Origin: a virus
Virus record (IMG/VR): IMGVR_UViG_3300024261_001362
Location: 1-64,000 of that record
Length of the DNA: 64,000 bases
Strand: one strand, 5' to 3'
The position numbers were made by a program, and so were the translations under genes. The first letter of the stretch is position 1. Each line of letters opens with the position of its first letter. The notes below the pieces were generated by a model. It saw only the letters and a program-made list of their open reading frames with translations, made no database searches and was not told the origin of the DNA. Shown here piece by piece: positions 3,259-57,363 of the stretch.

Positions 3259-6200
3259 ATGGCTATTAATGAGACAATAAGACCAAATGGCAATGTTAAT
3301 CAATTGTGGAATGTGTATGACTATACAAAGATCATTGACAGTAATGATCTTACTTATGCTATGGCTGATGATGACAATGAATTAGTAGAGCAGATATGGA
3401 GTTTTGACAATCCAGCATTCACATTCGAGACTTTAGTTTCCGTTGAAGTATTTGTTAAACATAAAGATGCCGGCATATCTGGTAATCCAGATGCTTCTGT
3501 TAATGTAAAGATTGGTGGTTCTTGGTACACGGGCCAAAATATTTCATACAACGGTACTTATAGTGTGGTTTCTGTAAGTTGGGATGGTGTTTGGTCAAAT
3601 AGTGATTTCAATGATTTTCAAGTTGGTATAACGGCACCAGATATTTCTAACAAAAATCGTGAATATAAAGTTGCTGAAGTATATGCTGTAATATCAGTAG
3701 CAGAAGCTGGTTACAGTCAAATTACAATCAATAATCAAAAATCAGATTCTCCTAATCAACCAGAGTTTGAAAAGTCCGAAGGTGAGAGTTTTGAAATAGA
3801 GTTGTATCATAATGGTATTGATCTTGGTACGACTATTGATTTTACAATTGCAGCCTCTCCAAATGATTCGATTCTTGGGAATGGAGGGTTCACACTTGAT
3901 GATATTGCCTCCGTAACTGTAGGTAGTACTACTTATGAAGTAGTAGAAGGTGTTCTTGCTGGTCAAACATCTGTAGTAGATGGAGTCAAAACAGAGAAGA
4001 TTGTAATTACTCTTGCTGAGGATTCTATATCTGAAAATACGGAATATTTCAGGTTAACATTTGCTACAACTGACAGTGCTGGTAATCCTACAACTCTTTC
4101 GAGTACTCAAGAAAGTTGGAATCCAAGCAATCTCGCTCAAACTTGGGATATGTTGATTACTAATGTTGTTCCCTCTGATGTTGTTTCGGTTGTGGCAACT
4201 CAAAATGGTACTGAAGCTGGTACTCCAGTACAATTTACATTTACAAGAACAGGTGACACAAGTAGTTCATTGAATGTAAGTTATCGGATGTTTGGAACTG
4301 CGGTAGCGGGTACTGATTATACAGGTTCTCAGACTGGTACGGTGACTTTTGGAGCGGGTGTAAGTAGTGTTGTGCTTTCGCTTCCAACTATAGAAGACTC
4401 TGTAATTAATCCAGTTAAGATAGTGGGAGTTTATATTGATAAACTTTCTACATATGATATTACTCCAGCTAAACAGTTTGCGGAAGCTACGATTGTTGGT
4501 GATGGTATTGTTAGTAGTGAAATACAGACCTCTACTGTGCCAATACCAAGGAATGGCTCGAATTTTACCAATACCAATAACTTTATGGCGTTGAGAACAG
4601 ATGGTTCGGTCGTCAACGTCATGTCAGTCATGTCAACCGATGATGCTCCTCCTGTCGGTTTAGATAATGTCAGCCAGGTCTTCTCGAACGACATAGCCTT
4701 TGCAGCGTTGAAAGAGGACGGCTCGGTCGTCACATGGGGGCATCCAACGGCTGGCGGAGACAGCAGCGGCGTGGCTGCACAGTTGAGCAGTGGGGTTGTT
4801 CAGATCTTCTCCACAATCAGTGCTTTTGCAGCGTTGAAAGATAACGGGTCGGTTGTCGTATGGGGTGATGCAACGAGGGGTGGAAGTAATAATACTGGAG
4901 TAGATTTAAGTAGTGGTGTTGTAAAAATCTTTTCAAATTATGGTGCTTTTGCAGCATTGAAAACAAATGGTAGTGTTGTTACTTGGGGTGACAGTAGTGC
5001 CGGTGGAAATGGAGCATCTGAATTAAGCGGTATTACTGATATAATAGATATTTGTTCAACTTATGATTCCAGTACTAAAGGAGCTTTTGCTGCATTAAGA
5101 GCAACTGGTGAAGTTATTACCTGGGGATGCGTGGGATGTTCCGCCCCTCAAGTTGGTAACGATAGTTCTGGAGTACAAGCTGAATTAGTCAATGTTGTTA
5201 AAATTTTTGCAACCCGAAATGCATTTGCGGCGTTGAAAAGTGATGGTTCGGTCGTCACATGGGGAGGCAATTATGGTGAAAACAGTGGTGCTGTAGCTGC
5301 AGATTTAAGCAGCGGTGTTACTTGGATCTCTGCACAGTGGCATAGTTTTGCTGCATTGAAAGAAGATGGAACTGTTGTTCATTGGGGGAGCGGCGGTGAG
5401 GATGGCGGCACTGATTGGGATGATGTAAAAAGTGATCTTACTAATCCAGCAACGGCAAATGTCATTCAGATTTATGATAATGTATGGGCTTTTGCAGCAT
5501 TAAAAAGTGATGGTTCGGTTGTTACTTGGGGTACTGAAACTAATAGACCAAATGGATCTAATAGTAATAGTGTAAGTGCAGATTTGAGTAGTGGTGTTAA
5601 ACGTGTCTATAGGACCGATTATGCATTTGCGGCACTAAAAACAGATGGATCAGTTGTCGTTTGGGGTGATTCAGCTTATGGTGGTACAAATAATACTGGA
5701 GTAGATTTAAGTAAAGATATTGTACGGGTTTTCGCTAATAGACGTAATTTTACAGCATTGAAACGGGACGGCTCGGTCGTCACTTGGGGGAAAGATAACC
5801 TTGGAATTAACAATAATGTAACAAATGTCCGAACATTTTCTAATATAGAGACATTAGATACTTTAGATCCTGTTGCTCTTAATGATAATCCTCCGACATT
5901 AAACGCTATTGATGATATCACTATTGATGAGGATGCTCCTGAGCAAACCGTTAATTTAACAGGAATTGGTGATGGTGATTCGGGAACTCAACCATTACAG
6001 ATTACGGTTTCTAGCAGTAATCCCACATTAATTCCGACTCCAACTGTAACATACACATCAGATAATGTGTTTGGAAGTTTGACTTTCACTCCTGCTCCGG
6101 GATTAAGTGGTGAATCTACAATTACAGTAACGGTTACAGATGGTGGGTTAGATAATGATCTAAGTACAACAACTGACAACAAAACATTTTCTCGTGAATT

Positions 6201-9200
6201 TACAGTAGGGGTTGATTCGGTTAATGATCCACCGACATTAAATACCATTGGTGACATAACTATTGAGAAGAATTCTGGTCCACATACAGTTTCTCTTGCG
6301 GGTATCACTGATGGTGATGATGATACTCAAGCTTTAACTGTAACAGCCGTAAGTAGTGCTACGGGTACAATTCCAAATCCAACCGTAACATACACTTCAA
6401 ACAATACAACTGGTAGTTTGACTTTTACCCCTGTAACTGATCAAACTGGCACAGCTACTATTACTGTGACAGTACAAGATAGTGCTGGTGGTACAGTAGC
6501 TCGTACATTTACTATAACAGTAATTGATGTTAACAATCCTCCAACATTAGATGCTATTTCTAATGTCACGATTGAGGAAAATGATCCTGAGCAAACTGTT
6601 AATTTAACGGGAATTACTGATGGCGATGGTGTAAGTGCTCCATTAAAAGTAACAGCTACCAGTAGTAATACAAGTATAATCCCAAATCCGGTTATTGCTT
6701 ATACATCCGCACAGACAACGGGCACTCTAAAATTTACACCAATTCAAAACAGATTTACTCCTGTCGGACAACCTGTAACAATTACGGTAACAGTTGAGGA
6801 TGCGGGATTAGATAATGATCTCAGCACCACTTCAGATAATCTCACCTTTAGTCGCACGTTTACAGTCACTGTAAATGAATATATACCACCAAGATATTAT
6901 GTAATTGACATTGAGTTAGTATCACATCCTGGAAATCAATCAATATTATTGAATAATGGATTTAGTGCTGAAGTTTGTCATATCACAGAATATGCAAATC
7001 CTGTAGCAGAATATGTTAGGGGATTTGGTCATACATTAGATAATCCTCTCGTTGCAAGTGGTGATACTAGTATTAAATCAAGATTAACTGGTGTGCTTGT
7101 AGCAAGTGGAGACTTTTTATCTTCTGGTGCAATTCCTAATTCTGGATTATTTGTTACTCATGGTCCATCCAAACACATTGATGGGTCAGGTTCATTACAA
7201 GCTACATACACCGACAAACTTGCTGGTGATTTTGGTGACTACAGGTGTGCTGAAAAATTATATCCTATTGCTGATATTTCTAATAGTTACTTCGTGACCT
7301 CCAGTGGTACACATTCTGATTTATATAGTTCGATTGACGAAGGTGTATTCTCTGGAGATGGTATAAAAGAAAATGGTGTCTCTACATTAATAGCAGACTC
7401 TACTACATTCATTCAGCCATCATCTATTCATACAGATGATACATTTAGTTATAAATGTAAAGTTACTACTCCTCTTGTGAGACCAGAACATACCAGATTA
7501 AGAATTAGAGCGGCAGCACCATTATTTACTCATGAAGCTAAAATTCCGCCGAAATATACTTTTACCGATATTAAATTTGAAGACCCAGATGGTGCCTTAA
7601 TTGTTCAATATAATGATATTGTGGTTTCTGGTGACTCTACGTATATTAGTATGAGTGGTGATGAGAATTTTGCTACATATTCCAGTGCCCCTAAAGTTAA
7701 TAATATCACATATTCATGGGATGATACTTATCCTAATTTAAGTGGTAATGAATATACATTATCATTTAATTTATTGAGTGAAGACCCTGGAGATGCCTTC
7801 AGTGCTGGTTTTGATCCTGGTTTTGAAGAAGATTATGATGTACCAGATCCACTACATAGTGGTGATGATTATCTTGCTTTAGATGGTTCTCCTTTATCCA
7901 GTATGGGTCAGAGTTATATAAATCCAACACCAAGTATTAGAATTTCTGCGATTGAAATTTGTAATAGTGGTGGTCGTGGTCCTCGTACTGAAGATTATAT
8001 TACTCTTTTCTCGGAAGTACGTTCTACTGGTAATAAAGTACAAAGAACATTAATTCCAACATCTATGCCGTTGGTTGATTTTGATACTACTATATATCCT
8101 ACGGTAAGTAGTGTTTGGTATGCAAGTGATGATGCTAATTTTTCAAATTATAATACTGTAGGAACAAAAAGATTAATTCATAATATTAATAATAGTTTTG
8201 ATTCAGACTTTATTATTATGAACCATACATCTGGTGTAGCAGATTCTGGTAAATTAACATTAAAGATGAGTCATAATGCAGACCCTAATAATCTTAAAAC
8301 CAGAACTCGTGGTGCATTTGATTTAGGCTTTGATGGAACTATCGGTGGTACATGTATTAGAAATGGTGCCTTTAATAAATTAAATATTGAAGATGATGAT
8401 ATCAATGATGGATTCTTTGTCGCTGATCGTGATTGTATAACTCTACGAGTTAGGGCTAAAAAGCAATCTGGTTCAAGGGACTATGTGCTTGATGTTGTCG
8501 GTTATAGTGACGATTGTATTTTAAATATAACAAGTGCTGTTGGTGGATTCTTACAGGCTTCATCAGGTAATCCTATTGGCAACTATCCTGTCTCATCTGG
8601 ATTTAGTGGATCAGATGATCTTGCTCTTAGTGCCACATCTCTGTCTCAACGGGAAAACTATTTCCAGGTAAGTGGTGATAATAGTCACTTTGTTAATCTT
8701 GGGGAAGACCATTATTCTCTTGTTGATGGACCATTGGTTAATACTACGGAATTTGCTTGGTATGAAATCCCACTAAAGATTTATGATGACAATGTTACTC
8801 TCGGTCGTTCTCGTGATTATCGAATGAGTTCATTGCTTGAGAATCTATACTTAGATATCTATCCATTACCGAGTGGTGCGAGTATTTCTCAAGTAGAGAT
8901 GCTGGTTACATATGCACCGCAAAATGCATTAAAGATGATTACTGAAGGTGGTGAAGTTAGAAAAGTTACATCGGAAGATAGACCAGAACCTAAGATTTTC
9001 CCAAGCTCGATGCAGCCTAATGATAGTTATTTAAATGCTGGATCTGGTTACGGTTCATTATCTTACATAAGTGGAATTCCTCAAGCTTATTCTACTAAAA
9101 ACACCTCATTAAAAACTAACTATTCCAGAAGATGGCGGGGTATGGATGGTTTAACTGAAGGTCCGTATGACCAAGAGGCATTCGGCTTTGGTTTCTACAA

Positions 9201-12200
9201 TCCACAATTAGATTATCCATTCTTATCTGGTTTCTATGATTTTGATAAAGAGAATGGTGTTAGTGTTATACCTCGTGTTGGTAATTTGACAGGGGTTATT
9301 TCAAGCACATATTCTACATATAGAATTAACAACTTAGGTTGGCGATTTAAAAATTCCACTTTGTTCGCTGATCAGTTGCCAGGATATACTGGTGCTTATG
9401 AAACTATTGACTGGAGTTCATTATCGAACGGTTCCAACAATTTCCATAACCATCCATTGTCTGGTCAAATTGCAGATGCGTTTAATACTGCCATTAGAAT
9501 ATCTGGACATAATTCCAATATTAACTTTGGTGATATAAATATTGTTCCTGATTCTGGCTTTAGTATGTATGCCAGATTTTCTCCAGATGCCAATGTCTCT
9601 GGAGTAGGATACGATCTATTCGAGAGTGGTTGCTTGTTCTCTAAATGGGATACAGGTAATGATCTTGAATTCGCTTTAGGTTATGCTAGTGGCTTCTTAC
9701 GTGGTTATGCTAGAGACAATGCTGGTGCTATACATACAGTACAAGACCCTGCTATATGTTCTGGCTACCAATATCCATTAAGTGTAATCTTGACTTATAA
9801 CGATGATGGTCTTAGTGGTTTAAAACTTTATACTGATAATGAATTCGAACCCAACTGGCAAACTTTAAGAGCCAGTTCTGTCGCACCATTCCATTTACAT
9901 AGTGCGAATAGTAATTTCGTGGTTGGTAATTCAACAGGTTCCGGTGTTGGTTTTAATATGTTCCTTACTGAGTTAGGTGTCTCTAACTCTGGTAATGTTG
10001 TATATTCTAATCCAGATCCTACTTATAAGCAAATCACTGCACAAAGATTTTTAGAAAACAACAGATTATTCTGGTGGGATAATACTGACACATCGTCTAA
10101 TGATGGTTATACATTATGGAAGAATATCGATGAGGATACTCGTACCGATTGGACTTTGGGTGATTTCAAATATGAACCTTTCTCATTAGCGTTTTCTCAA
10201 ATTTCCAAAAGAACCAATAGAGATCTTGTTAGTTTCAAAGTCTGTAGTGATGGTCAACCTTATTATGCTAAAACAAATCAAACTCTACCTTCTACAATTG
10301 ATAGCGGTGTAGCATATCATAGTCAAATTGAAAATGACTTTTTAAGATTCCATTTAAGTGATACTCCTAATAATTTCTATTCTGTTTATCCACGAATTAG
10401 CAAGAGCCTACCAAGAGGTTATAATTTTGTAGATGATGCTTTAGTCGTAGAGACTGTTTTGGAGCACACTACTAATCACGATATTACATGGAGTGGTGGT
10501 CAAGTTGGACCGAAATTGATTGTTAGTCTGTATACCAAAAAACAAGAACCATATTATGAAACTGCCAATCCTAACTGGGGATTAATTAATCGTAGTACTC
10601 ATTATCTGGAACCATCTGGTGGTATACATAGGCTCGATAGTACATTTACATATGATGATGTGTGTGATAAATCTGAGGAATGGGCCACTTTCCCAATTGA
10701 AGCCAAACTAAAAGAATTTAAAGAGAAATATTTTTCACAAGATGTGGATGATATGTTCTTACAGTATGATGTTGTGTATCCATCTGGTGGTTCATTTGAG
10801 TCTACAATTGATATCCACACTGCACATGTCAGGATGGAAAATGCATATGTGAATCCTACTGCTGATTCTGGAATCCTTAATATTGCTACGAGTGGTGGTC
10901 ATGTTGTAGATGATAGAGACCTAATGTTGTCTCTATATAATGGTCCATCGCCAACTAGTGGTGAACTTACACTATACACTATTGGTCCTATCCAGGTTGA
11001 AAATTCAGGGTTGCCACTTCACACGAGTGGATTATTTGCAAGTCGAGGTGAATTTAATTTATTCACCACTAACTTCATGACAATTGAACAATCTGGTCTG
11101 ACTTTATCTACCTCTGGTAAAATGCCGATTGAGCAATCTGGTGCTGTAAATCTACATACTTTAGGTAAGGGAATCCTCACATCGGCCAGTGGTGATCATT
11201 TAGGATTTTCCTTAACGGCAGTAAACACTGAAACTGCTGGTTTGATTAGTGGTATATTCAACTTAAATGCATTTGTTAGTCCAACTGCTGACACAGATGC
11301 TATACAAGCTAATATGCCAATATTTGTGCTGAATGATTTTCAGACAGATCCAACTGATAATAGTGGTATTCTTAACTTAAGAACATTAGCTACATCGGCA
11401 TTAGTATCAATATATCCTACAGCATCAATGAACCTGTATTTGGAAACAGGTTATGCTTCTACTAATGCTGATATGAACCTTACATTGTATGGTGATAATT
11501 ATAGCACAACCGCATCTAGTGGTTCTATGAATCTATCAACTGCAAATTATGCTGGTCCATCCAATCCACTATCAACATATAATTATGCCAGTGCTGGTTC
11601 AGATTACTTATATTGGTTCAATAATAATGTAGGTACAGGAATTAATGTTTTTGATAATTCCTATGCAACCTTACCTGCCGATGATGAGCTTAGAGGTGTA
11701 GATTTAATTGGTTATGGATCTTGCATTGGAAATAGTCCAGACAAAGCTATTGATGCTGTCATAGAAACAGATGATGTTGTGTGGCGTGAAGAACAATGTG
11801 TCGAAGGCGGTATTATGAGAGCCGACAAGACATATACAAATCTTGAAGCTGGTTACAGTGGTAATTATTATGGTATAAGAAAATATACGGAATTAGTTCC
11901 TAGTTATTCTTATTTTGCTACACTGGAAATGAAAACTGGTAATACAGAATCTATTAAAGTTCCGAGAGATTTAGAAGAATGGGAATATGGAATAAATTCT
12001 GATATCAATTATTCTGGGGTTAAGTTGATTGGTGATGATCCCGCCTTAAGTGGAGATGCATCTATTGAATATCCTCTACCAGACTCTGGAAGAAACCCAG
12101 AGGATAACTATGGTAAATCAGTTGCGGTCCACAAAGACTTAATGGTTGTCGGTTCTCCGTTTATAGATATTCCAGATGAGTCTGGCTACAAAATGACCAA

Positions 12201-41364: not shown

Positions 41365-41365
41365 A

Positions 41366-42280: not shown

Positions 42281-42284
42281 GCTA

Positions 42285-46118: not shown

Positions 46119-46119
46119 T

Positions 46120-48276: not shown

Positions 48277-48278
48277 AT

Positions 48279-48928: not shown

Positions 48929-49717
48929 TTAATCTGTAGTTATTCTGTGTTTTGGAAATCCAAGTTTCTTTCTTTCCTCAAATACTTGACCATCTCTACC
49001 CGAAAAATAAAGTGTTTTTTGTGCAGAGGCGTCATAATCGCCAGAATTAGAATTTCCATCTTGAGCATAGTGCTCATGTTTAATAATCATTTGGTCGATA
49101 TATGTTACTTTGTTGAGCCTTTTAACTTCTTGTGTAAACTCATCGTCACAATATAGACTCTTATAATCAGGATGGTAGATATAACCAAAATGATCGTATA
49201 GCTTTCTCCCCAAAATTGAAAAAGTAATCAACCCACCCTTATCAGCATATCCATCGTCGAATGAGACACAACCATCCAGACTTGGGTAATGTTCCATCAT
49301 AGCTGTTGCAATGTAATCATCCCAGTTGTCAACCTGTGGGATCATATCATCTGAAATAACAATTACGATATCCCAATTCGTTGATCCCTCTATGAGAACA
49401 TTCCCTTTAATTGCGTAAGGGTTTTCCCAATTGATATTGGCATTTACAGCACCAATTTTAGTTGTATTTTTTTCAAAGTATACGGCTCCAGAACAAAAGT
49501 TATCGTGCCATTTATCTTGATTGTTCCTAGTCTGATTATGAAATGCCTCCTGCATCATATCCTTCATGTCAGGGTTATTCATAGTTTCGTCAGCGACATC
49601 GCAATTGATATTGAAAAATATACTATGCCGACCACTGGTGTTATTGAGATACTTCTTTAAGCAAGACAAAAACTTTTCAGGTCTTGCTAATGTTGGAAAT
49701 TGAGCCAATATTTTCAT
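48929..49717 (-). CDS. GT2-like glycosyltransferase
   Basis: FPTLARP, DIVIVISDDM, YKSLYCDDE, IKHEH. Confidence 0.75.
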   Translation of the reverse strand: MKILAQFPTLARPEKFLSCLKKYLNNTSGRHSIFFNINCDVADETMNNPDMKDMMQEAFHNQTRNNQDKWHDNFCSGAVYFEKNTTKIGAVNANINWENPYAIKGNVLIEGSTNWDIVIVISDDMIPQVDNWDDYIATAMMEHYPSLDGCVSFDDGYADKGGLITFSILGRKLYDHFGYIYHPDYKSLYCDDEFTQEVKRLNKVTYIDQMIIKHEHYAQDGNSNSGDYDASAQKTLYFSGRDGQVFEERKKLGFPKHRITTD

Positions 49718-50583
49718 AGCTGTTCCTCCAAGGTCTTCACCTTATTGGCTTCGTCTGTACATTCAATAGCCTTTAATAGTCTAATAGTTCTATTAAAACA
49801 TGTGTGCTTACGTTTGATTTGTCCTTTTATAGCCTCGGAAATGTTATCAGCTTCTTGCTCGTGAAACAATGTTGCTAAAATTTTATTTAGAGTTTCTTTT
49901 TGATTGTCTGGAACCTGTAGTATAGTGGAAGGACACCTAAAAGTAGATTCGAAAAATAATTGAGAAAACACAACATGTAAATCGTCAACCAGTAAAGCTT
50001 TCCTATACCTATCAACTATACTGATAAAACTCGCAATGTCAATATTAAAATCAAAATCTTTTTCATCAGTTCCAATTCCTATTGTGTGATATGATTCTTC
50101 CTTGTCTGTAAAACTTTTGATTGTATCTGCGTTACCACTTGTAACAATACAGGTTGATAAATTAAATGGTGTAACTTCTTGTTTAGGAACAAAAATATCC
50201 AATCCCGGTAGTATGTTAATCAATTTAGTCTGTGATTTATTTAATGGACTCATTAACTCGTGAGTGTTTGTAAACAATAGTTTTGATTTAATTTTTCTTG
50301 ATGCAAATTCTTGTTCAATCTGATTAATCATTTGATTATCTGCACCCGTGATATTCAAAACCACCTCAATATTGCTGCCACTTAAATATTTCATAATGTC
50401 TTGTGTAATGAACCGAAAGTGAGTCAGGAAAACATCTGGGCTGGTAGCATCGAAAATATCAAATGTACTAATATTCTTATCGGCCCAAAACACTGCATCA
50501 CATTTAGACTCAACCATACACCTATGAAGATACAATGCTTCAGTAGAAAGCGGTGTTGAATAATTTTGTAGTAGCATTTTCAT
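49714..50583 (-). CDS. Degenerate GT-B (CgeB/Glyco_trans_1_2-like) protein
   Basis: PDVFL N-lobe and C-terminal KHTCFNR matching the HTYxxR-type ending. Confidence 0.4.
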   Translation of the reverse strand: MKMLLQNYSTPLSTEALYLHRCMVESKCDAVFWADKNISTFDIFDATSPDVFLTHFRFITQDIMKYLSGSNIEVVLNITGADNQMINQIEQEFASRKIKSKLLFTNTHELMSPLNKSQTKLINILPGLDIFVPKQEVTPFNLSTCIVTSGNADTIKSFTDKEESYHTIGIGTDEKDFDFNIDIASFISIVDRYRKALLVDDLHVVFSQLFFESTFRCPSTILQVPDNQKETLNKILATLFHEQEADNISEAIKGQIKRKHTCFNRTIRLLKAIECTDEANKVKTLEEQL

Positions 50584-51326
50584 AATTTTGTGGTCTTTCT
50601 TAAAACCTTGATGTTATCAATTTTTCTTATCGGCCTATCTATAACATTTTCTTGAATGTACAGATCTTGTTTTTTACATAATTCATTTATTGCCTCAAAC
50701 ATAAATTTGTTTTTATATTCTGTCGTAGAAACAATTTTATAAAAATGATTGACTGCATTAGTATTATTTAAATATAGGATTTCAGTCCAGTATTTATCCT
50801 TTATGCCTAGCGATAGCCTTTGCAGTTTAGATCTTTCTTCTATAATTCCTATTTCAAAATTAGAATCATCTATTTGATTTTGCGTCACTATCGAAGAATT
50901 TTCAAAATTTAACATGTCTAAATGTAATGGAGAAAATAAAACTCCTCCACCAAAAAAAATAATCTTATTATTCATTATTGTATTTAAACACAACCTGATA
51001 CTCTCGCAGCAGTTTGAATTGTAATACATTTGGTTTTCTACAACTTTAATGTTGATGTTGGAAAATTTCGTTTTTAAAAAACTCACAATCTTAATGGATT
51101 CAAAACCAACACAAACAATAATCTCAAAATTTTGGAAAGTCGCCTGAATACTTTGTATCTGTTTTTCTATAACAGTCTTACCATCCTCTAACTTCAACAT
51201 AGAGATTGGTCCATAGCTTTTCATTCTATATCCATGATTCTCACCAAGCAAGACTACGGTTATAAATTCTTTTTTCTTGGAGACCTTTCCCTTTTTCGGA
51301 CTAGTAATGAAATTCTTATTTCTCAT
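50580..51326 (-). CDS. Nucleotidyltransferase-fold protein (LicC-like), catalytic motifs degenerate
   Basis: VVLLGENHGYRMKSYGP, EIIVCVGF, VVEN..Y..N..ES, KIDN. Confidence 0.6.
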   Translation of the reverse strand: MRNKNFITSPKKGKVSKKKEFITVVLLGENHGYRMKSYGPISMLKLEDGKTVIEKQIQSIQATFQNFEIIVCVGFESIKIVSFLKTKFSNINIKVVENQMYYNSNCCESIRLCLNTIMNNKIIFFGGGVLFSPLHLDMLNFENSSIVTQNQIDDSNFEIGIIEERSKLQRLSLGIKDKYWTEILYLNNTNAVNHFYKIVSTTEYKNKFMFEAINELCKKQDLYIQENVIDRPIRKIDNIKVLRKTTKL

Positions 51327-52069
51327 ACAACCTTTACCATATTACTTAACTGAGCCATAGATTCAATGCTTTCAACTGTTTTATCGAAATCATTATGGTT
51401 CATGTACTCACTATTAATAGCGGAAAACAATGAGCAGACTGTGTCCTGTTGTTTAAATATTATATTCTTATCTAAATCATGATTAAGCGAGATATTTATT
51501 TTAGAGAATAAATCAGGATTAATAATGTCTCCAGCATGTAGTTTAATCAAATAGTTACTACCATACAAATTGGAGAAACAACTGAAGTCACGAACTTCTG
51601 CTTCTTTAACTCCTGTCAAAACTAACTTAGAATTTTTAAACCCATTATCAATTAATGTGTTAGTAAGATGTGCCATCTTTGATACATCTTTAGTTGTAAA
51701 TGAACTAATAATTACTTTTATTTTATCGGGTGGATATTGAGTATCTAAAATTGAGTTGATAGTTTTTTCTACTTTATCGGGATTACCTTCGTCGTATATA
51801 GCTATCCCGAAAGTAGGCTTAATTTCATTCTGTGCCTCTTCAAGTGTAATCTCAGTGTCTTCATCCCTATATAGATTACATAGCCTTGTGAGACCATATA
51901 ATGTACCTGTGTCTTCCTTAACAACTAAACACTCTTGACGCTCTTTAAAGTTTTTTATCCTTTTAGCGGTACAGCCTATTTGTAAATTACCAACCCTCTT
52001 AGCAAATTTACAACCCTTACAGGTCATAGCCACTTTATCGTTCTGCGGTGATTTCATAATATATACCAT
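51323..52069 (-). CDS. Cys-rich N-terminus + degenerate GT2-like domain
   Basis: CKGCKF..GC..RLC; KTINSILDTQYPPDKIKVII; no DxD. Exact start uncertain. Confidence 0.45.
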   Translation of the reverse strand: MVYIMKSPQNDKVAMTCKGCKFAKRVGNLQIGCTAKRIKNFKERQECLVVKEDTGTLYGLTRLCNLYRDEDTEITLEEAQNEIKPTFGIAIYDEGNPDKVEKTINSILDTQYPPDKIKVIISSFTTKDVSKMAHLTNTLIDNGFKNSKLVLTGVKEAEVRDFSCFSNLYGSNYLIKLHAGDIINPDLFSKINISLNHDLDKNIIFKQQDTVCSLFSAINSEYMNHNDFDKTVESIESMAQLSNMVKVV

Positions 52070-52448
52070 TAATCTGAGTGGTTATAACTTTTAAGTCAAG
52101 TTGGGATATAATATTTGCAATTTGTGTTACATCTGACATAGACTTACAATTTGCAACTACTTCGGATGCATCTTCTGTAGACATAAGATTGTTTATAACA
52201 TTAGTAGTAAACATTCTTAGATCAATGCCTCCAATTACTATTTTACCACCAATTCTTAGTTTCTTTCTGAGACTAACTAGACAATCTGTAATATTTTTAT
52301 AGTCAAAATGATTTAGAATTTTATCTGCCAAAATATATTCACACTCATTGTCGGAGATATCTTCAAAATCTATATTACCGTTTTTTACGGCGATTTCTCT
52401 TATGCCTTCAATCTTTTGTTGATTTGGAATAGTAAGTTGTATTTTCAT
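52035..52448 (-). CDS. Truncated class I methyltransferase-like protein
   Basis: DNECEYILADKILNHF...KKLRIGGKIVI; SAM-binding motif I is absent. Confidence 0.5.
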   Translation of the reverse strand: MKIQLTIPNQQKIEGIREIAVKNGNIDFEDISDNECEYILADKILNHFDYKNITDCLVSLRKKLRIGGKIVIGGIDLRMFTTNVINNLMSTEDASEVVANCKSMSDVTQIANIISQLDLKVITTQINGIYYEITAER

Positions 52449-52462: not shown

Positions 52463-53008
52463 TTATTTTAATAACCATAAGCAAGACAATTTGTTTTCAT
52501 AATCTTCATTAAGACAAAGTAGGGGTTGCCCTAAATTAAATGGTGCGGCTTCTAAAGATATTTTAGAATGTTTCATATTTGGAGCTTCCATTCTTGAATC
52601 GTTATCTGCTCCATTAAATGTAGTCGATAGTAGATATTTAGAAGATTTTCTGAATAACTCTATAGATTTATTAACCATATCATTAGGTAAATGTATGAAC
52701 ACATCTCTGCATATGATCATATCAGAATCTCTCATACATTCAGTTATTATATCTAAATTTTGACATTTTAATTTGTTGTTCCATGTGTCTCTTGATATTA
52801 AATCATATCCTAAATAATCTATACCAGACAGATCAATAGTCGAAATCCAATTTAAATCTCCACAGCCAGCATCATTTATTGTTTTAATATCATAATCTTT
52901 AATGATTTGGGGTAATTGTTTTCTAATATTTTCTGTGTGTGCAATTTCAGATCCCCATCCACACACAGTTCCAGACGCAGACCAGCCTTTTTCAAACATA
53001 CTTTTCAT
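52463..53008 (-). CDS. Class I SAM-dependent methyltransferase
   Basis: CGWGS, INDAGCGDLNW, YLGYD, DMIICRDVFIHL, YLLSTTF. Confidence 0.8.
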   Translation of the reverse strand: MKSMFEKGWSASGTVCGWGSEIAHTENIRKQLPQIIKDYDIKTINDAGCGDLNWISTIDLSGIDYLGYDLISRDTWNNKLKCQNLDIITECMRDSDMIICRDVFIHLPNDMVNKSIELFRKSSKYLLSTTFNGADNDSRMEAPNMKHSKISLEAAPFNLGQPLLCLNEDYENKLSCLWLLK

Positions 53009-54003
53009 GACCGACCCGTTCTATATACTTGTGTGAATAAAGAATTCCAATTTTCAATAAATTTTTCTTCAGAAAATAGTGCTAATATTGTACCTCTAGC
53101 TTCAGCACCCATTTTGTTTCTCAATTCTTCATCTTCCAGTAGTTGCTTACAATATCCTCTAAGCTCATTTTCATCATTAGACATAAATCCATTTACGCCA
53201 TTTTTTATTACATTTGGTATTTCACATGTCGCTGTTGTTACTACTGCACAACCACAAGCCATTGCTTCTAATAATACTGTAGGAATAGGACTATAAGTTG
53301 ACGTATTTAGAAATACTTGAGAGCTGTTGTACTCTTGAACTAATTCTTCAACCGAAGAAGTAGGCTCACTCAATCCTTCTGTTTTACCAACAATTCTTGT
53401 TGGAAATTCTTTACCTTCATTAGTGATTCTAACATAACCCTGCCAATTACAACAATAATCTCTGTTAATCCAATCATTGACAATACTCAACACCTGCGGC
53501 TTTTTTTCTGTATGGTTTGGCTTGAATATATCTGTGTCAATTCCATGAGGAATTACAATAGACTCACCATTTATTGACCACTGCTCTTTAGAATAATCTG
53601 TAAGGAATACATTAAAATCACCAGTCATTTGTCTAAAATTATTGAGCTGTTCATTTGTAATGTTGATGGTTGGGACAGTACATTCCATAGAGATAATTGG
53701 AATCTTTAAAACATTAGCAATTTTATAAGCTGCTTGTAGATGTCCAAACTTACTATTAGCAAGTATGAAATCATAATCAATAGAAGACGGAAGGGAATTT
53801 TGAGGCATCATGTAGTAATTATTTGGCACTTCTGCGTATGATGCATCCCAAGTTTTCATACCTTCACCAATGAAACCGTAAAAATCATGGCCTGTTTTAC
53901 AAAGGTCTGATTCAAATCGTTCATGTGTTGGAAAAGTAATTATATTGTATTTATCTTTATCATTAATTGATTGATTGATAAATTTACGAGTTTGTAGACT
54001 CAC
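53005..54003 (-). CDS. GT4 glycosyltransferase
   Basis: VIPHGIDTDIF, VFLNTS..PTVLLEAMACGCAVV, NGVNGF. Confidence 0.85.
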   Translation of the reverse strand: MSLQTRKFINQSINDKDKYNIITFPTHERFESDLCKTGHDFYGFIGEGMKTWDASYAEVPNNYYMMPQNSLPSSIDYDFILANSKFGHLQAAYKIANVLKIPIISMECTVPTINITNEQLNNFRQMTGDFNVFLTDYSKEQWSINGESIVIPHGIDTDIFKPNHTEKKPQVLSIVNDWINRDYCCNWQGYVRITNEGKEFPTRIVGKTEGLSEPTSSVEELVQEYNSSQVFLNTSTYSPIPTVLLEAMACGCAVVTTATCEIPNVIKNGVNGFMSNDENELRGYCKQLLEDEELRNKMGAEARGTILALFSEEKFIENWNSLFTQVYRTGRS

Positions 54004-55126
54004 TTAACAGTCCTTTCATTTGCTGACCAATATTCTCGTAAGAGAACAACTTAGTTTGTTCTAACCCAGCGAGTTTCCATTTTCTTTTAGTACCGACAGG
54101 ATCTTGTTTATGTTCTTCGTATTTATTTCTCATAGCTTTCCGTGTCTGCATTTCACATGGTTGGAACCAGTACTCTCTACCTGTAAATAAATCTGGGAAT
54201 GCTGCATCAGAACATTTACAAACAGAGTAAGATCCACCAACCAGTGTGCCAGAATCTTCATTTATAAATTCTTTAGGTCCACCATAATCACTACAGATAG
54301 GACTAGAACCAAATCCCATAGCATCAAATGATGGCAATGACCATGCTTCCCCATGACTAGGACAAACAAAACAATCAGCATATTGGTGTAAGGCACAAAT
54401 ATGATCGTCGTCTATATTATCTGAAATAATGATGTTTGTATGGTACTGAGATGGATGGGTATACATTCTAAGGTCTTGTTGTACCTTACCTATAATACCA
54501 TCAATTACTTCTTTACATTGATCAGGATTGTGTCCAAACTTTTTAACCTTTAGAATTAATGATACAGGTTCCGATCTATCAAATTCACTATGAAAACAAG
54601 TGATAATTGATTCTAAATTTTTTCTGTCATTAATATCGCCAATATAATAAAACTTAAATGTGCCGTCTGGAATAGGCAAATTAAGCTCTTGATATTTTTT
54701 TGTATATCTAGATACAGAGCATGGATGTGGTACTACATGAATATCGGTAGTTATGCCATCATCAATGAGAGATTTTTTCAGATCATTGTTAGGCACCCAT
54801 AATTCGTCCATCTGTTTTAATTGTTGTAACCAGCCAATATATTTAAGGCTTGTTGATTCTGAAACAAAATAGGCGATGTTCTTCTTAAAAGCTTTACCTC
54901 CAACTAAATGGTGAGGTAAAACATGTTGAATACAAATATCACATCCACTACTGTCCTTCTGTTCTAATTCAAGTAATCTGGGGTGTATATTAGGATTGTC
55001 TTGAGTCAGTGTGACGTTGCGACAAACAACATCGACTCCAGCATTATCCAGAGCTAATATATGTTCTTTTGCAGCAACTGACCATCCACTGCTTTCTTTG
55101 TAGTGTGCTATGTATAATACCTTCAT
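53984..55126 (-). CDS. GT4 glycosyltransferase
   Basis: DELWVP, FYYIG..RKN, DCFVCPSHGEAWSLPSFDAM. Confidence 0.85.
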   Translation of the reverse strand: MKVLYIAHYKESSGWSVAAKEHILALDNAGVDVVCRNVTLTQDNPNIHPRLLELEQKDSSGCDICIQHVLPHHLVGGKAFKKNIAYFVSESTSLKYIGWLQQLKQMDELWVPNNDLKKSLIDDGITTDIHVVPHPCSVSRYTKKYQELNLPIPDGTFKFYYIGDINDRKNLESIITCFHSEFDRSEPVSLILKVKKFGHNPDQCKEVIDGIIGKVQQDLRMYTHPSQYHTNIIISDNIDDDHICALHQYADCFVCPSHGEAWSLPSFDAMGFGSSPICSDYGGPKEFINEDSGTLVGGSYSVCKCSDAAFPDLFTGREYWFQPCEMQTRKAMRNKYEEHKQDPVGTKRKWKLAGLEQTKLFSYENIGQQMKGLLSESTNS

Positions 55127-55127
55127 A

Positions 55128-55676
55128 CTATTCCCTCATATCTATTATGCCGACTTGATTAGCTACATCATACATAGTAATATCTAAATCTGTAGGTATT
55201 AAGGTTCCTTTGATGGAATAATCATCAATAATGACTATAGCTTTCTGATCCTTGATTTTATTAAATTGATCTAAGGTTTCTTGTGGGTCATTACCTCCAT
55301 CTAAGTAATAGATGTCGTATGTGTCATTATCTAAGTAATCTATTGCATCTCCATATTTTGCTTCTATTTTATAGCCTAATGATGATGCTGCAAAAATAGA
55401 GTGACTCAAATTATCAAGATTTATGTCTGCAATAGTCAATTTGCCGCCATATTTTTCTACATATGGGCCAAAGATAGTGTCTGCCCATCCTGATCCAAGT
55501 CTCCACGCTATTCTAAATGTTTCTATAGCACCAACTTGAAAGATTTTCACTGGTTTATTTTTAAATTGAGATAAAGTCCACTCAAATATAAAATCTCTGG
55601 TTGGAACTTCTAATTTATTCTCTATATCACCATTCAACATAGCAACAGCAAAATCATATTCTGAATCATGTGCCAT
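55128..55676 (-). CDS. Class I methyltransferase (Methyltransf_24-like)
   Basis: IFQVG, IADIN, GDAIDYL, DIYYLDG, IVIIDD. Confidence 0.65.
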   Translation of the reverse strand: MAHDSEYDFAVAMLNGDIENKLEVPTRDFIFEWTLSQFKNKPVKIFQVGAIETFRIAWRLGSGWADTIFGPYVEKYGGKLTIADINLDNLSHSIFAASSLGYKIEAKYGDAIDYLDNDTYDIYYLDGGNDPQETLDQFNKIKDQKAIVIIDDYSIKGTLIPTDLDITMYDVANQVGIIDMRE

Positions 55677-57363
55677 TAATAATACCTCTCTGTTTCATTG
55701 TGTCAAATCTCCTCTGTTCCCATTGATTTCTTCTATTGCATTGTCCTTTCATTTGGTCATATGCTATATTGAAATCAAATGATTCTCTAGCACCTGTTCC
55801 AGCAAATGCTTGTGAAGATTCATTGAAGTACATACCACCAGTAGAGGCAGTTGAAGATTTATACATTAAATCTCTTGTCAATCTGGCTTCAAAGAAGGTA
55901 TTAAGTTTTGATGGATCACCTAAGACTTCAACAATCAACCATCGAGCAAGTTCTGCGTGGGGGATTTGTGGGGCTTGTTCTGGTTTTGGTTTGGACTCAT
56001 GTATCTTAGGTTGTGAGGCCCATGTAGCTTCAATTGGTAGTAATTCAACACTATCAAAATATGCTTCCCACTTAGCTCCACTTAAATGCCACTGATAATG
56101 CTTTTCAAAATTCTCTCTTGTTTTTTGACCTATAGCAGCTCTTTCATCATCACTTTTCTCAAAGAATTCTTCAAACATTTGTGCTGCCAAATCGTTATCT
56201 GGAACTGCTCTTAAGCAACCAGTTTCCAACTCCTTATAAAGAGCGGCTGGCTTAATAGGAAAGCCTTCAAGCTTACGAAGTACTGATTCCATAGCAGAAT
56301 AATCTGTACCCATAACGGGAACACCACAAGCAGCAGCTTCAACTTGCGGTAAACCAAATCCTTCACAATTTGCATACTGCACATAAAGATCAAAATAATT
56401 CATTATCTGTGATAGATCTTCATACGAAGCACCATTTTTCACATTTGATAATGTAGCTCCCCACTTCTTAGTATAAGGGGATTGGGCGATGGCACCTTTG
56501 AAGACAGATGGGAATGGCTTCTTTGTGTCAGGACATATGTACGTAAATAGTACATGAGAAGCCAACTCATACTGCTGAAGCAATTCTGGAATATCCCATC
56601 CTAAATCTGGATAGGAAGTATGACAATACAAATAGCATGGGTCTGTATAGCCCTTGGCTCTTTGTAAATCTAAAAACTTCCTAAACGCAGCAAAAAGATC
56701 CGGGTATAATTTCCTCCGTTGATTCCGCATCACTGTGCCGATAATCTTAGAACTAACATCTAGACCATTTTCTAGTCTGAGTTGACGTTTGTCCTCAAAA
56801 GGCTTATAAGCCGGGTGTGCGGATGGAGGAGCACTGCCAAGATAATTAATCTTTCCTCCGGACTGATCTTCTAAGATACCACCTGCCCAATCCGAATATG
56901 TAAAACATGCATCGGCATTTTCATAACTAGCAATCCATTGTCTAGCTTGTGGCCTTGCGTCTACTGTAGGCATAATAGCCCACTTAAAATAATTCCTGAA
57001 AGGAGATCTTTCAGCGAAATCTAACATCCAAAAATCTCGGATGTCACAAACAACATCTGGTAAAAAATCTAAACATACATGTTCAAATATCCACTCACCA
57101 AATTGATTGACTCCATTAGAATTATATCCATCTATTTCTTGTTGAGATGCTTTAGGTTCTGACTGTTGGTTTGGCATGACGCCATAATATGTCCAAGGAA
57201 TATTAGCTGCACGAGAATCATTACGCTCACCGTAAGAAGCCATCTCTGCAATTTCATACTTACCTGTGCCGTGTAGGTAATTCAATATTTCTCTTGTGTA
57301 TGTAGCATAACCAGTATTTAAAAATGTGGCTTCACTACAAAACAAAATTCTTTTTTTTCTCAT
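55666..57363 (-). CDS. GT4 glycosyltransferase (565 aa)
   Basis: RILFCSE..TGYA, RNQRRK, EGFGLPQVEAAACGVPV; likely start MRKKR at 57363. Confidence 0.88.
   Translation of the reverse strand: MRKKRILFCSEATFLNTGYATYTREILNYLHGTGKYEIAEMASYGERNDSRAANIPWTYYGVMPNQQSEPKASQQEIDGYNSNGVNQFGEWIFEHVCLDFLPDVVCDIRDFWMLDFAERSPFRNYFKWAIMPTVDARPQARQWIASYENADACFTYSDWAGGILEDQSGGKINYLGSAPPSAHPAYKPFEDKRQLRLENGLDVSSKIIGTVMRNQRRKLYPDLFAAFRKFLDLQRAKGYTDPCYLYCHTSYPDLGWDIPELLQQYELASHVLFTYICPDTKKPFPSVFKGAIAQSPYTKKWGATLSNVKNGASYEDLSQIMNYFDLYVQYANCEGFGLPQVEAAACGVPVMGTDYSAMESVLRKLEGFPIKPAALYKELETGCLRAVPDNDLAAQMFEEFFEKSDDERAAIGQKTRENFEKHYQWHLSGAKWEAYFDSVELLPIEATWASQPKIHESKPKPEQAPQIPHAELARWLIVEVLGDPSKLNTFFEARLTRDLMYKSSTASTGGMYFNESSQAFAGTGARESFDFNIAYDQMKGQCNRRNQWEQRRFDTMKQRGIINGT

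What the first reader, a model, noticed from the sequence alone, without database searches (positions are those of the whole stretch)
3259..57363. Candidate phage-encoded proteoglycan-like virion O-glycosylation system: Ser-Gly-rich structural proteins next to a 31-gene soluble glycosylation island
Seen: in the phage-core part of the giant protein (nt ~7057-11523, ~1490 aa) I counted by hand about 49 Ser-Gly dipeptides but only about 11 Gly-Ser, so the bias is directional and not just compositional. It continues to the C-terminus and in the 134-aa and 573-aa proteins, and is weak in the tape measure (about 7 in 931 Gly-rich aa). The neighbouring island encodes ~17 GT-like proteins, including GT47 exostosin, GT77, GT10, GT32 and GT25 types. 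Known: Ser-Gly is the glycosaminoglycan attachment sequon of animal proteoglycans, EXT-family enzymes elongate such chains, and some mycobacteriophages glycosylate virion serines. Inference: SG is the acceptor sequon of a phage priming GT, giving a dense methylated/fucosylated glycan coat. Alternative: SG is simply a beta-turn preference.
Basis: partly seen in the sequence, partly recalled or inferred. Interest (0 to 1): 0.9.

Follow-up and report, generated by a model that had tools for sequence, protein, structure and literature searches.

The report
Ser-Gly excess on phage tail proteins
The giant tail protein and several other outer virion proteins of this uncultured aquatic phage lineage carry two to three times more Ser-Gly pairs than chance gives; these may be attachment sites for a sugar coat made by the phage's own soluble enzymes, but no chemistry shows that, and the proposed likeness to animal proteoglycans does not hold.

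Summary
Observation confirmed. The 5183-aa protein has 97 Ser-Gly (SG) against 42 expected and 48 GS.

- The excess acts on the amino acids: both serine codon families are used.
- It is Ser-specific: NG, DG and TG are not enriched.
- It holds in all 42 divergent orthologues (median 2.2-fold).
- SG is kept or lost as a unit.
- It spans unrelated folds and also marks fibre and head proteins of relatives.
- It is absent from non-virion proteins, tape measure, portal, putative capsid protein and two large distal tail proteins.
- It is absent from T4 and from two small marine phages that have no glycosyltransferase (GT) genes.

The island is real and soluble, but only 8 GTs have Pfam support, not about 17. 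Its central 15 kb (GT47, GT10, GT77, GT25, GT32) is a swappable cassette. A relative with 74-97% identical flanks carries nonulosonic-acid genes there, and the SG excess is unchanged. The EXT/proteoglycan analogy therefore fails.

A conserved GT4 trio is in every near-complete relative. Serine O-glycosylation at SG is my leading reading (about 0.4). A lineage-specific strand-edge idiom is nearly as likely. Earlier scan reports describe the same pattern in at least eight other genomes.

The parts
26..2821 (+). Tape measure protein, 931 aa. Internal control: no SG excess.
   Evidence: 7 SG against 8.1 expected. Orthologous to the tape-measure-sized genes upstream of the giant gene in relatives.
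3259..7056 (+). N-terminal accessory part of the giant protein (aa 1-1266): Calx-beta, RCC1 repeats, Big_9/cadherin-like domains. No SG excess.
   Evidence: Pfam. 13 SG against 11.4 expected and 17 GS. Largely absent from the 3.7-4.1-kaa orthologues.
7057..11523 (+). SG-richest conserved core of the giant protein (aa 1267-2755). All-beta, and includes a ConA/LamG-like jelly-roll at about aa 2061-2270 (nt 9439-10068) with 10 SG against 2.2 expected.
   Evidence: 49 SG, 10 GS, 14.3 expected. AF2 model of aa 1267-2466, pLDDT 66. Foldseek hits are to lectin-like jelly-roll domains. SG lies mostly just before strands. 145 representatives, all orthologues.
11524..18810 (+). C-terminal part of the giant protein (aa 2756-5183), with FG-GAP-like propeller repeats and terminal 'SGxhxLxh' repeats. 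SG excess continues.
   Evidence: 35 SG against 16.5 expected and 20 GS. FG-GAP_2 Pfam hit. The family consensus keeps SG inside FG-GAP-like and terminal repeats.
18810..20531 (+). 573-aa virion-module protein. SG excess not significant.
   Evidence: 7 SG against 5.0 expected, P = 0.24. No Pfam or PHROG family.
20565..20969 (+). 134-aa protein in which 8 of 12 glycines follow serine.
   Evidence: 8 SG against 1.7 expected. Only the ALSGITDFT site is shared with distant orthologues. The other sites are clade-specific, some in insertions; PSG aligns with PNG and TSG with TTG/SAG.
20981..29673 (+). Two large distal tail-module proteins (1614 and 1281 aa) without SG excess.
   Evidence: 6 against 9.8 and 9 against 9.9 expected. 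Their G002 orthologues have 5 against 10.1 and 4 against 9.8.
30563..33791 (-). Conserved left flank of the island: Zn-ribbon protein, two 255-aa proteins, a 180-aa ORF and an NAD-dependent sugar epimerase/dehydratase (32865-33791).
   Evidence: Pfam. 90-97% identical in G002. The Zn-ribbon and 255-aa genes are 53-71% identical in G003.
33832..48920 (-). Variable 15-kb glycan cassette: GT-D-like (weak), two FkbM methyltransferases, NTP-transferase, GT32, GT25, GT10 fucosyltransferase, shikimate-DH-like, cupin/NTase/kinase fusion, HAD phosphatase, GT47, GT77 and unknowns.
   Evidence: Pfam. No orthologues at this position in G002 despite 74-97% identical flanks, and none in G003. G002 has a nonulosonic-acid cassette instead. 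GT10 is found only here and GT47 above cut-off only here. No TM-like segment.
48929..52448 (-). Five conserved island genes of unknown function (262, 289, 248, 248 and 137 aa).
   Evidence: 75-97% identical in G002. Three of them are 26-40% identical in G003. No Pfam family even at E <= 1 for three of them, and none at E <= 0.01 for the other two.
53005..57384 (-). Conserved GT4 trio (332, 380 and 572 aa) with a 182-aa ORF between. Candidate core or priming enzymes.
   Evidence: Glycos_transf_1 hits. Present in all five relatives that are at least 84% complete, and in two of the four more fragmentary records. The 572-aa protein has more than 3600 homologues; the top 120 clusters are 72-99% identical and one carries an intein. 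AF2 pLDDT 80. Best PDB fold hit is chlorovirus NY2A GT 3oy2, followed by MshA and BshA.

Best explanation
Ser-Gly, usually followed by a hydrophobic residue and placed at the start of a beta-strand or in a tight turn, is a selected motif on a subset of outer virion proteins of this phage lineage. I read it as the acceptor site for serine O-glycosylation.

Proposed mechanism, all inferred:
1. The conserved soluble GT4 enzymes (572, 380 and 332 aa) act in the host cytoplasm on folded or folding tail and fibre proteins and put the first sugars on SG serines.
2. The swappable 15-kb cassette supplies strain-specific outer sugars. Here these would be fucose, methylated sugars and an unusual nucleotide-activated sugar. 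In relative G002 they would be a nonulosonic acid.
3. Virions of close relatives would therefore wear different glycan coats.

Shown: the motif statistics, its conservation and distribution, the gene content and variability of the island, and the absence of membrane-pathway and DNA-modification genes.

Inferred: that any glycan is attached to protein, that SG serines are the sites, and which enzyme primes.
For: 1. Size and direction of the excess: 97 SG against 42.1 expected and 48 GS. The core has 49 against 14.3.
2. Selection is on the amino acids: AGY and TCN codons are both used, 47 and 48 of the 95 SG hexamers tallied.
3. Ser-specific: in 42 orthologues at most 50% identical to each other, median o/e is SG 2.2 (range 1.63-2.91), GS 1.04, NG 0.72, DG 0.86, TG 0.89.
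4. SG behaves as a unit: the odds ratio for keeping both residues is 9.5, against 1.0-5.0 for 19 other adjacent pairs. SG serines are conserved 0.48 against 0.33 for other serines.
5. The excess persists in fast-evolving segments (o/e 2.1 in the least conserved third) and new SG sites appear in clade-specific insertions.
6. It is not tied to one fold. It occurs in a LamG-like jelly-roll (10 SG in 210 aa), FG-GAP-like repeats, a 975-aa coiled fibre (52 against 15.9), a 704-aa fibre (32 against 12.4), a head protein and small proteins.
7. It is confined to virion modules: pooled o/e 1.80 against 1.05 in G002 and 1.55 against 1.27 in G003. For SG plus a hydrophobic residue the values are 2.65 against 1.16 and 2.28 against 1.36.
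8. It is absent from controls: 16 T4 structural proteins pooled give 1.09, and fibres of phages Venkman and CRP-6, whose annotation lists no GT gene, give 0.3-1.7.
9. All five relatives that are at least 84% complete carry the GT4 trio.
10. Island proteins have no TM-like segment. No Bac_transf phosphoglycosyl transferase, no large multi-TM protein and no ThyA-type hydroxymethylase were found. This argues for a soluble acceptor that is not hydroxymethyl-pyrimidine DNA.
11. Cassette swapping between near-identical flanks is what is seen for exposed glycans under diversifying selection.
12. Precedent read in PMC4358343: TibC heptosylates serines but not threonines of the TibA beta-helix, including Ser-313 in ...QNSGGAV....
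Against: - No chemistry: nothing here shows any glycan on any protein.
- No GT with a known protein-serine specificity was recognised. The 572-aa GT4 resembles generic retaining GT4 enzymes with small-molecule acceptors (MshA, BshA) about as well as the chlorovirus GT. GT9/BAHT and Maf families are absent.
- In confident parts of the model, 67% of SG sites lie just before a strand or between two strands. In the fibres SG is part of the periodic repeat. That is what a structural strand-edge motif looks like.
- About 15 sites are near-invariant, like structural residues.
- The putative major capsid protein and the two large distal tail proteins are not enriched, although capsid proteins are the main glycoproteins in mycobacteriophages and chloroviruses.
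- 52 sites on a 975-aa trimeric fibre would be sterically very dense.
- The island is co-oriented with replication genes, not with the structural operon.
- The controls cover only three unrelated phages.
Confidence: 0.42

Rival explanations
1. SG followed by a hydrophobic residue is a purely structural idiom of this lineage. It would be a favoured way to cap and start beta-strands and to build rungs in fibre repeats, inherited and spread by domain shuffling among its tail and fibre proteins. The glycan island would then act on another acceptor, such as a host envelope component, a small molecule or another protein, or on virion proteins at other sites.
For: SG sits mostly right before strands or in tight strand-strand connections. 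It is part of periodic units such as SGVAISGWA..NSGVAVSGWA and SGxhxLxh. A subset of sites is near-invariant, like Pro, Tyr and Phe. At several aligned positions the Gly is kept while the preceding residue varies (S, N, T or A), so the Gly is the structural anchor. The SG excess is independent of the variable cassette content. Exposed capsid and distal tail proteins lack the excess.
Against: The excess crosses unrelated folds: jelly-roll, propeller-like repeats, coiled fibre, small proteins. Classic turn pairs NG and DG are depleted rather than enriched. T4 and two marine phages build fibres and baseplates without it. It persists in poorly conserved segments and new insertions. The pair is kept or lost as a unit far more than other pairs.
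Confidence: 0.36
2. SG marks serines for some other process than glycosylation. Examples are a different post-translational modification, or recognition by a lineage-specific assembly chaperone or attachment factor for tail and fibre proteins.
For: The same features that suggest a sequon apply: Ser-specific, unit-like, fold-independent, virion-restricted. Many genes of this lineage have no family assignment, including conserved island genes and virion-module genes.
Against: No candidate enzyme or chaperone was identified. The only conserved enzyme set seen next to the virion module is the GT set. A chaperone signal repeated about 100 times in one protein would be unusual.
Confidence: 0.12
3. 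Proteoglycan-like system as first proposed. A priming GT would recognise SG as animal xylosyltransferase does, and the GT47 exostosin-type enzyme would elongate a glycosaminoglycan-like chain.
For: The dipeptide is the same. A GT47-domain protein is present at 46821-47672. Asp is about 2-fold enriched at positions -5, -4 and +2 around SG in the core.
Against: A GT47 match above cut-off exists only in this genome. Four relatives at least 84% complete (G003, G004, G005, G009) have none, and G002 has only a weak sub-threshold one. G003, G004 and G009 were measured and show the same SG excess; G005 was measured on a partial locus, 1.86-1.97. The Pfam scans of the island ORFs hit no GT14, GT7, GT31, GT43 or GT64 family. 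The GT47 protein is a single 283-aa domain. Glu is not enriched near SG.
Confidence: 0.03
4. Compositional or mutational artefact. The excess would follow from Ser and Gly richness, a DNA motif, or nitrogen-saving replacement of Asn.
For: The giant protein is rich in Ser (9.7%) and Gly (8.4%).
Against: No shuffle of the same composition exceeds 63 SG, against 97 observed. GS is at expectation. SG uses many different hexamers from both Ser codon families. The expected NG count implies Asn is about 7.6% of the protein, so Asn is not avoided. The Gly-rich tape measure shows no excess.
Confidence: 0.01

Closest known systems
Virion glycosylation of mycobacteriophages (Che8, Corndog, Myrna; Freeman et al. 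2023, as summarised in PMC12363180 and PMC12619734)
   Same: Phage-encoded soluble glycosyltransferases are thought to decorate the phage's own virion proteins in the cytoplasm.
   Different: In mycobacteriophages the glycans are reported on capsid and tail-tube subunits (at their C-termini, per PMC12619734), made by a few GTs, and no dipeptide sequon is known. Here the putative capsid protein is not SG-enriched. The candidates are tail, baseplate and fibre proteins with tens of sites each. The island has about 30 genes with a swappable centre. Nothing is shown chemically. The primary paper could not be read here.
Bacterial autotransporter heptosyltransferases TibC/AAH acting on TibA and AIDA-I (PMC4358343)
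   Same: A soluble cytoplasmic enzyme hyperglycosylates many serines, not threonines, on a beta-rich repeat protein. One mapped site is an SG (Ser-313 in QNSGGAV).
   Different: TibC is a GT9-like iron-containing dodecamer. No GT9 family match exists in this genome or in four relatives. The other mapped TibA site is S-A, so SG is not a strict sequon there.
Virus-encoded virion glycosylation of chloroviruses and mimiviruses
   Same: Large clusters of soluble, eukaryote-like GTs, sugar-nucleotide enzymes and sugar methyltransferases without membrane machinery. The best PDB fold match of the conserved 572-aa GT4 is the chlorovirus NY2A GT 3oy2 (E 5e-15, TM 0.76 on the target).
   Different: Those are viruses of eukaryotes. 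From my own knowledge, their best-studied acceptors are capsid or fibril proteins, partly N-linked. The fold match is hardly better than the matches to MshA and BshA.
Glycosaminoglycan attachment to Ser-Gly in animal proteoglycans (GT14 xylosyltransferase, EXT GT47/GT64)
   Same: The dipeptide, and the presence of one GT47-domain protein.
   Different: The Pfam scans of the island hit no GT14, linker GT or GT64 family. GT47 lies in the variable cassette and is missing from relatives with equal SG excess. The acidic flank is faint. Sites lie at strand edges of folded beta domains rather than in disordered acidic stretches.
Hypervariable surface-glycan loci (O-antigen and capsule loci; flagellin glycosylation islands with pseudaminic or legionaminic acid)
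   Same: Conserved flanks with a swapped central cassette. G002's cassette encodes NeuB twice, a CMP-transferase, two DegT aminotransferases, a PseA-like amidotransferase and a sialyltransferase-like GT.
   Different: No initiating phosphoglycosyl transferase of the Bac_transf type, no flippase- or polymerase-like multi-TM protein, and no Maf-type transferase.

Membership tests
Animal proteoglycan / GAG attachment system | Ser-Gly acceptor with a cluster of acidic residues nearby | tested here: inconclusive
   SG excess confirmed. Asp is only about 2-fold enriched at -5, -4 and +2, Glu is not enriched, and a hydrophobic residue is preferred after Gly.
Animal proteoglycan / GAG attachment system | GT14 xylosyltransferase and linker-region GTs (GT7, GT31, GT43) | tested here: not met
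   Pfam scans of the listed island ORFs gave GT32, GT25, GT10, GT47, GT77 and GT4 only. The unknown ORFs gave nothing even at E <= 1. Very remote homologues cannot be excluded.
Animal proteoglycan / GAG attachment system | EXT-type polymerase (GT47 plus GT64) that goes together with the SG-bearing substrates | tested here: not met
   There is a single 283-aa GT47 domain and no GT64 hit. GT47 above cut-off occurs only in G000 of 8 records, while the SG excess is the same in all measured relatives.
Mycobacteriophage-type virion glycosylation | Phage-encoded soluble GTs in the genome | tested here: met
   8 Pfam-supported GTs without TM-like segments.
Mycobacteriophage-type virion glycosylation | Glycan demonstrably attached to virion subunits (capsid, tail tube) | not testable with these tools
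   This needs mass spectrometry or glycan staining of virions. The putative capsid protein of G002 has no SG excess, 2 against 2.2.
Mycobacteriophage-type virion glycosylation | Homology of the GTs to Che8 gp110 / Corndog gp38 | not tested
   No comparison was run.
BAHT (TibC/AAH) autotransporter heptosylation | GT9-like heptosyltransferase | tested here: not met
   PF01075 has no match in G000, G002, G003, G004 or G009, while the control genomes do match.
BAHT (TibC/AAH) autotransporter heptosylation | Serine-only modification of beta-rich repeats | tested here: inconclusive
   The sequence signal is Ser-specific (TG o/e 0.89) and lies in beta-rich proteins, but modification itself is not shown.
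Und-P-dependent surface polysaccharide locus (O-antigen or capsule type) | Initiating phosphoglycosyl transferase, flippase and polymerase (multi-TM proteins) | tested here: not met
   PF02397 is absent from 5 records. Island proteins have a maximum 19-residue hydropathy below 1.8. In G002 the only proteins over 170 aa with a TM-like segment are the tape measure and one 324-aa protein. PF00953 was not searched.
Phage DNA glycosylation (T4-type) | dNMP hydroxymethylase (ThyA family) that creates the base to be glycosylated | tested here: not met
   PF00303 is absent from G000 and from three relatives that are 94-100% complete. Other kinds of DNA modification were not examined.
Flagellin-type O-glycosylation with nonulosonic acids | Maf-type (MptE-like) transferase | tested here: not met
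   PF01973 is absent from 5 records, including G002, which has the NeuB cassette.

The most novel reading that the evidence does not exclude
S-G-hydrophobic is a true sequon for phage-encoded serine O-glycosylation. A highly conserved soluble GT4 core primes dozens to about a hundred serines per protein on the tail, baseplate and fibres. Interchangeable 15-kb cassettes then give close relatives different 'glycan serotypes'. This would be a dense, variable sugar coat on the virions of an abundant, uncultured aquatic phage lineage.
Probability: 0.4. Interest if true: 0.85.

Novelty: new variant of a known kind. Interest (0 to 1): 0.62.

Why it matters
Virion glycosylation has been demonstrated in phages essentially only for a few mycobacteriophages. 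No phage glycosylation sequon is known.

If SG serines are modified, three things follow:
- An abundant aquatic phage lineage would coat its host-recognition machinery with strain-variable glycans. The abundance is shown by more than 3600 homologues of its core GT in Tara, ENA, JGI and Logan data. Such a coat would bear on host range, resistance to proteases and grazers, particle stickiness and carbon export.
- It would give a simple sequence rule for finding glycosylated virion proteins in metagenomes.
- It would offer a soluble, sequon-directed O-glycosylation system of possible use in glycoengineering.

If the motif is only structural, it is still an unusual, lineage-wide rule of protein architecture that crosses folds and needs an explanation.

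Tried and rejected
- No cultured relatives. Megablast of 25 kb and tblastn of the giant core against 50,697 phage records gave nothing useful. The core family has only orthologues among 1.8 billion representatives, so no distant homologue outside the lineage could serve as a natural control.
- PDB sequence searches with the giant core and the two SG-rich fibres gave nothing significant.
- PHROGs named almost none of the virion proteins.
- I asked whether the 572-aa GT4 is GtfA-like, that is, like the priming enzyme of serine-rich repeat adhesins. A weak 42-residue sequence match to Gtf1 (E 0.006) was not borne out by the fold search, which ranks generic GT4 enzymes and a chlorovirus GT first. 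Rejected as evidence.
- Nitrogen-saving replacement of Asn by Ser: rejected, because Asn is abundant in the giant protein.
- DNA-level motif: rejected on codon usage.
- Generic type I' turn preference: rejected, because NG and DG are not enriched.
It was redone with shorter rows.
- The AF2 output gives no coordinates, so solvent exposure of the SG serines could not be computed. Only secondary-structure context was used.
- The primary mycobacteriophage paper (PMC10527164) is not held.
- No complex prediction was run, because an enzyme-substrate pair is a poor use of that test.

Full report
**What the window is**

The window is the first 64 kb of a 96.7-kb IMG/VR virus record that is about 58% complete.
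- The plus strand carries a tape measure gene (26-2821), a 5183-aa giant protein (3259-18810), and proteins of 573, 134, 1614, 1281 and 246 aa.
- The minus strand from about 30.5 to 57.4 kb carries the sugar island. It is followed by SSB, a split DnaE and an exonuclease.
- No cultured phage is related at the DNA level or through the giant core.

- The giant protein has 97 SG against 42.1 expected from its composition, and 48 GS. Two thousand shuffles never exceeded 63 SG. SG is the most deviant dipeptide by a wide margin.
That is almost exactly the hand count.
- The 134-aa protein has 8 SG against 1.7 expected.
- The tape measure (7 against 8.1), the 573-aa protein (7 against 5.0, not significant), the 1614- and 1281-aa proteins, and the N-terminal Calx-beta/RCC1/Big_9 part of the giant protein show no excess.
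- SG is written with both serine codon families and many hexamers, so selection acts on the amino acids.

**It is not a generic turn preference**

- NG (o/e 0.75) and DG (1.05) are not enriched in the giant protein.
- HMMER over 1.8 billion representative proteins found 145 relatives of the core. All are orthologous giant proteins or fragments of them.
- In the 42 full-length ones, which are at most 50% identical to each other, median o/e is SG 2.2 (1.63-2.91), GS 1.04, NG 0.72, DG 0.86 and TG 0.89.

**How SG sites evolve**

- On an alignment of these 43 proteins, SG serines are conserved 0.48 on average. Other serines score 0.33 and all residues 0.39. About 15 sites are near-invariant and many are lineage-specific.
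- The two residues are kept or lost together with an odds ratio of 9.5. Nineteen other adjacent pairs give 1.0-5.0.
- The excess is present in every conservation tier, including the least conserved third (o/e 2.1).
- In the 134-aa protein only one SG is shared with distant orthologues. The others are clade-specific, some inside insertions. At aligned positions PSG faces PNG, and TSG faces TTG or SAG.

**Which proteins carry it**

I fetched two near-complete relatives whole. G002 is 157 kb and its giant protein is about 74-80% identical. G003 is 166.6 kb with terminal repeats and its giant protein is about 33-38% identical.
- In G002 the excess also marks:
  - a 975-aa tail fibre (52 against 15.9, with the repeat SGVAISGWA..NSGVAVSGWA);
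  - a 704-aa fibre (32 against 12.4);
  - proteins of 321, 539 and 1462 aa;
  - a 154-aa head protein.
- The putative major capsid protein, portal, terminase, tape measure and the two large distal tail proteins are at or below expectation.
- Pooled o/e is 1.80 in the virion module against 1.05 elsewhere in G002, and 1.55 against 1.27 in G003. For SG plus a hydrophobic residue it is 2.65 against 1.16 and 2.28 against 1.36.
- Controls:
  - Sixteen T4 structural proteins, including gp34, gp37, gp12, gp7 and gp10, pool to 1.09.
  - The fibres of Methylophilales phage Venkman and Roseobacter phage CRP-6 give 0.3-1.7.
  - Both share the N-terminal anchor of the 975-aa fibre, and their annotation lists no GT gene.
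- This is only three control phages. Even so, it shows that fibres and baseplates do not need the motif.

**Structural context**

- An AF2 model of giant aa 1267-2466 is all-beta (31-row alignment, mean pLDDT 66).
- Its confident part around aa 2061-2270 matches lectin-like ConA/LamG jelly-rolls in the PDB. This resemblance concerns only the common beta-sandwich fold. That 210-aa domain alone has 10 SG against 2.2 expected.
- Of 18 SG in blocks with pLDDT of at least 70, 67% lie directly before a strand or between two strands. The figure is 35% for all residues and 48% for other X-Gly pairs. Half of all SG sites lie in low-confidence stretches.
- The family consensus also keeps SG inside FG-GAP-like repeats and in the terminal SGxhxLxh repeats.
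- The motif therefore sits at strand edges in several unrelated folds. That position fits an exposed acceptor and a structural cap equally well. Exposure could not be computed because no coordinates are returned.

**The island**

- Pfam supports GT32, GT25, GT10, GT47, GT77 and three GT4 enzymes. It also supports an epimerase/dehydratase, two FkbM methyltransferases, nucleotidyl transferases, a cupin/NTase/kinase fusion, a HAD phosphatase and a shikimate-DH-like protein.
- Ten more ORFs have no family even at E <= 1. The count of 'about 17 GT-like proteins' is therefore not verified.
- No island protein has a TM-like segment.
- The key new result is that the centre, 33832-48920, is a swappable cassette.
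  - G002 has flanks 74-97% identical. In the same 15 kb it carries two NeuB genes, a CMP-transferase, two DegT aminotransferases, a class-III aminotransferase, a PseA-like amidotransferase, a UDP-sugar dehydrogenase and a sialyltransferase-like GT. This is a nonulosonic-acid pathway.
  - G003 has only a 12-kb island, with an FkbM methyltransferase, a GT2 and a UDP-GlcNAc 2-epimerase.
- Across 8 records, GT10 occurs only here, NeuB only in G002, and GT47 above cut-off only here. The SG excess of the giant orthologues is the same everywhere.

**The conserved core**

- The conserved genes are the GT4 trio (332, 380 and 572 aa), five unknown genes (48929-52448) and the left flank.
- The trio is in all five relatives that are at least 84% complete, and in two of the four more fragmentary records. 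The decisive natural experiment, a relative without it, was therefore not available.
- The 572-aa GT4 is strikingly conserved and abundant. It has more than 3600 homologues, the best 120 clusters are 72-99% identical and come from ENA, JGI, Logan and Tara, and one carries an intein.
- Its model (pLDDT 80) is a GT-B enzyme with a C-terminal helical extension. The best PDB match is the chlorovirus NY2A GT 3oy2, closely followed by MshA and BshA. Nothing marks it as protein-specific.

**Other targets for the island**

- No ThyA-type hydroxymethylase exists in three relatives that are 94-100% complete. This argues against T4-type DNA glycosylation.
- No Bac_transf phosphoglycosyl transferase and no large multi-TM protein were found. 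This argues against a lipid-linked surface polysaccharide pathway run by the phage alone.
- GT9/BAHT and Maf families are absent.

**Weighing**

For a serine-glycosylation sequon:
- Ser specificity.
- Unit-like evolution.
- Independence from fold.
- Restriction to a subset of virion proteins.
- Continued gain in new sequence.
- Absence from the control phages.
- Constant company of conserved soluble GTs.
- A cassette architecture typical of exposed, diversifying glycans.
- The TibC precedent of serine-only hyperglycosylation of a beta-helix, including an SG site.

Against it:
- No chemistry.
- No recognised protein-serine GT.
- The strand-edge, periodic and partly invariant placement of SG.
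- The unmarked capsid and distal tail proteins.
- The density of sites on the fibres.

I put the glycosylation reading at about 0.42, a purely structural lineage idiom at about 0.36, another modification or assembly signal at about 0.12, and the original proteoglycan model at about 0.03.

**Earlier notes of this scan**

Earlier notes describe the same SG or S/T-G excess in at least eight other genomes of 154-175-kb marine and lake phages. All were judged 'partly supported'. I used them as leads for the TibC paper and for the SG-hydrophobic test, and I tested both here. They are not independent evidence.

Noticed in passing
window 55666-57384 (-); homologue P0250: One homologue of the highly conserved 572-aa GT4 is 929 aa long and carries intein-splicing and LAGLIDADG domains (PF14890, PF14528). 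From my own knowledge, inteins usually sit in essential, highly conserved genes, which would be unusual for a glycosyltransferase.
   Followed up: no
L037:5654-19286 (G002 45.6-60.8 kb): The closest relative replaces the fucose/methyl-sugar cassette with a full nonulosonic-acid (pseudaminic or legionaminic type) pathway. It includes two NeuB genes, a CMP-transferase, a PseA-like amidotransferase and a GT29-like transferase, but no Maf-type transferase.
   Followed up: partly
L042:7661-10588 (G002 975-aa fibre): The first ~105 residues are 43-62% identical to the N-termini of annotated tail fibre proteins of small phages of OM43, Roseobacter and SAR11 hosts (Venkman, CRP-6, HTVC023P). This points to a shared fibre anchor module among unrelated aquatic phages. 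The shaft has Asn-rich heptad-like stretches and a weak match to the UspA1 stalk.
   Followed up: partly
L042:4991-6610 (G002 539-aa virion-module protein): It contains a mucin-like Thr/Pro/Ser-rich linker of about 45 residues followed by a Cys-rich C-terminal domain. This would be a second, more conventional kind of candidate O-glycosylation region. The orthologous part of this window's genome is missing from the record.
   Followed up: no
window 9439-10068 (+), giant aa ~2061-2270: A ConA/LamG-like jelly-roll domain sits inside the giant tail protein. The protein also has Calx-beta, RCC1, Big_9 and FG-GAP-like parts, so it is a mosaic of adhesion-type domains.
   Followed up: partly
window 57723-62283 (-): DNA polymerase III alpha is split into two genes (533 and 547 aa). 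An exonuclease and a 216-aa ORF lie between them. The arrangement is conserved in G002 and G003.
   Followed up: no
homologue P0161 of the 572-aa GT4: One 75% identical homologue lies on a 56.7-kb contig binned as a Verrucomicrobiales MAG. This is either a binning artefact or a hint at the host.
   Followed up: no
window 30898-32429 (-): Two adjacent 255-aa genes and a 111-aa Zn-ribbon gene at the junction between the tail module and the island are conserved down to G003 (53-71% identity). One has a weak DUF559 (endonuclease-like) match. Their function is unknown.
   Followed up: no
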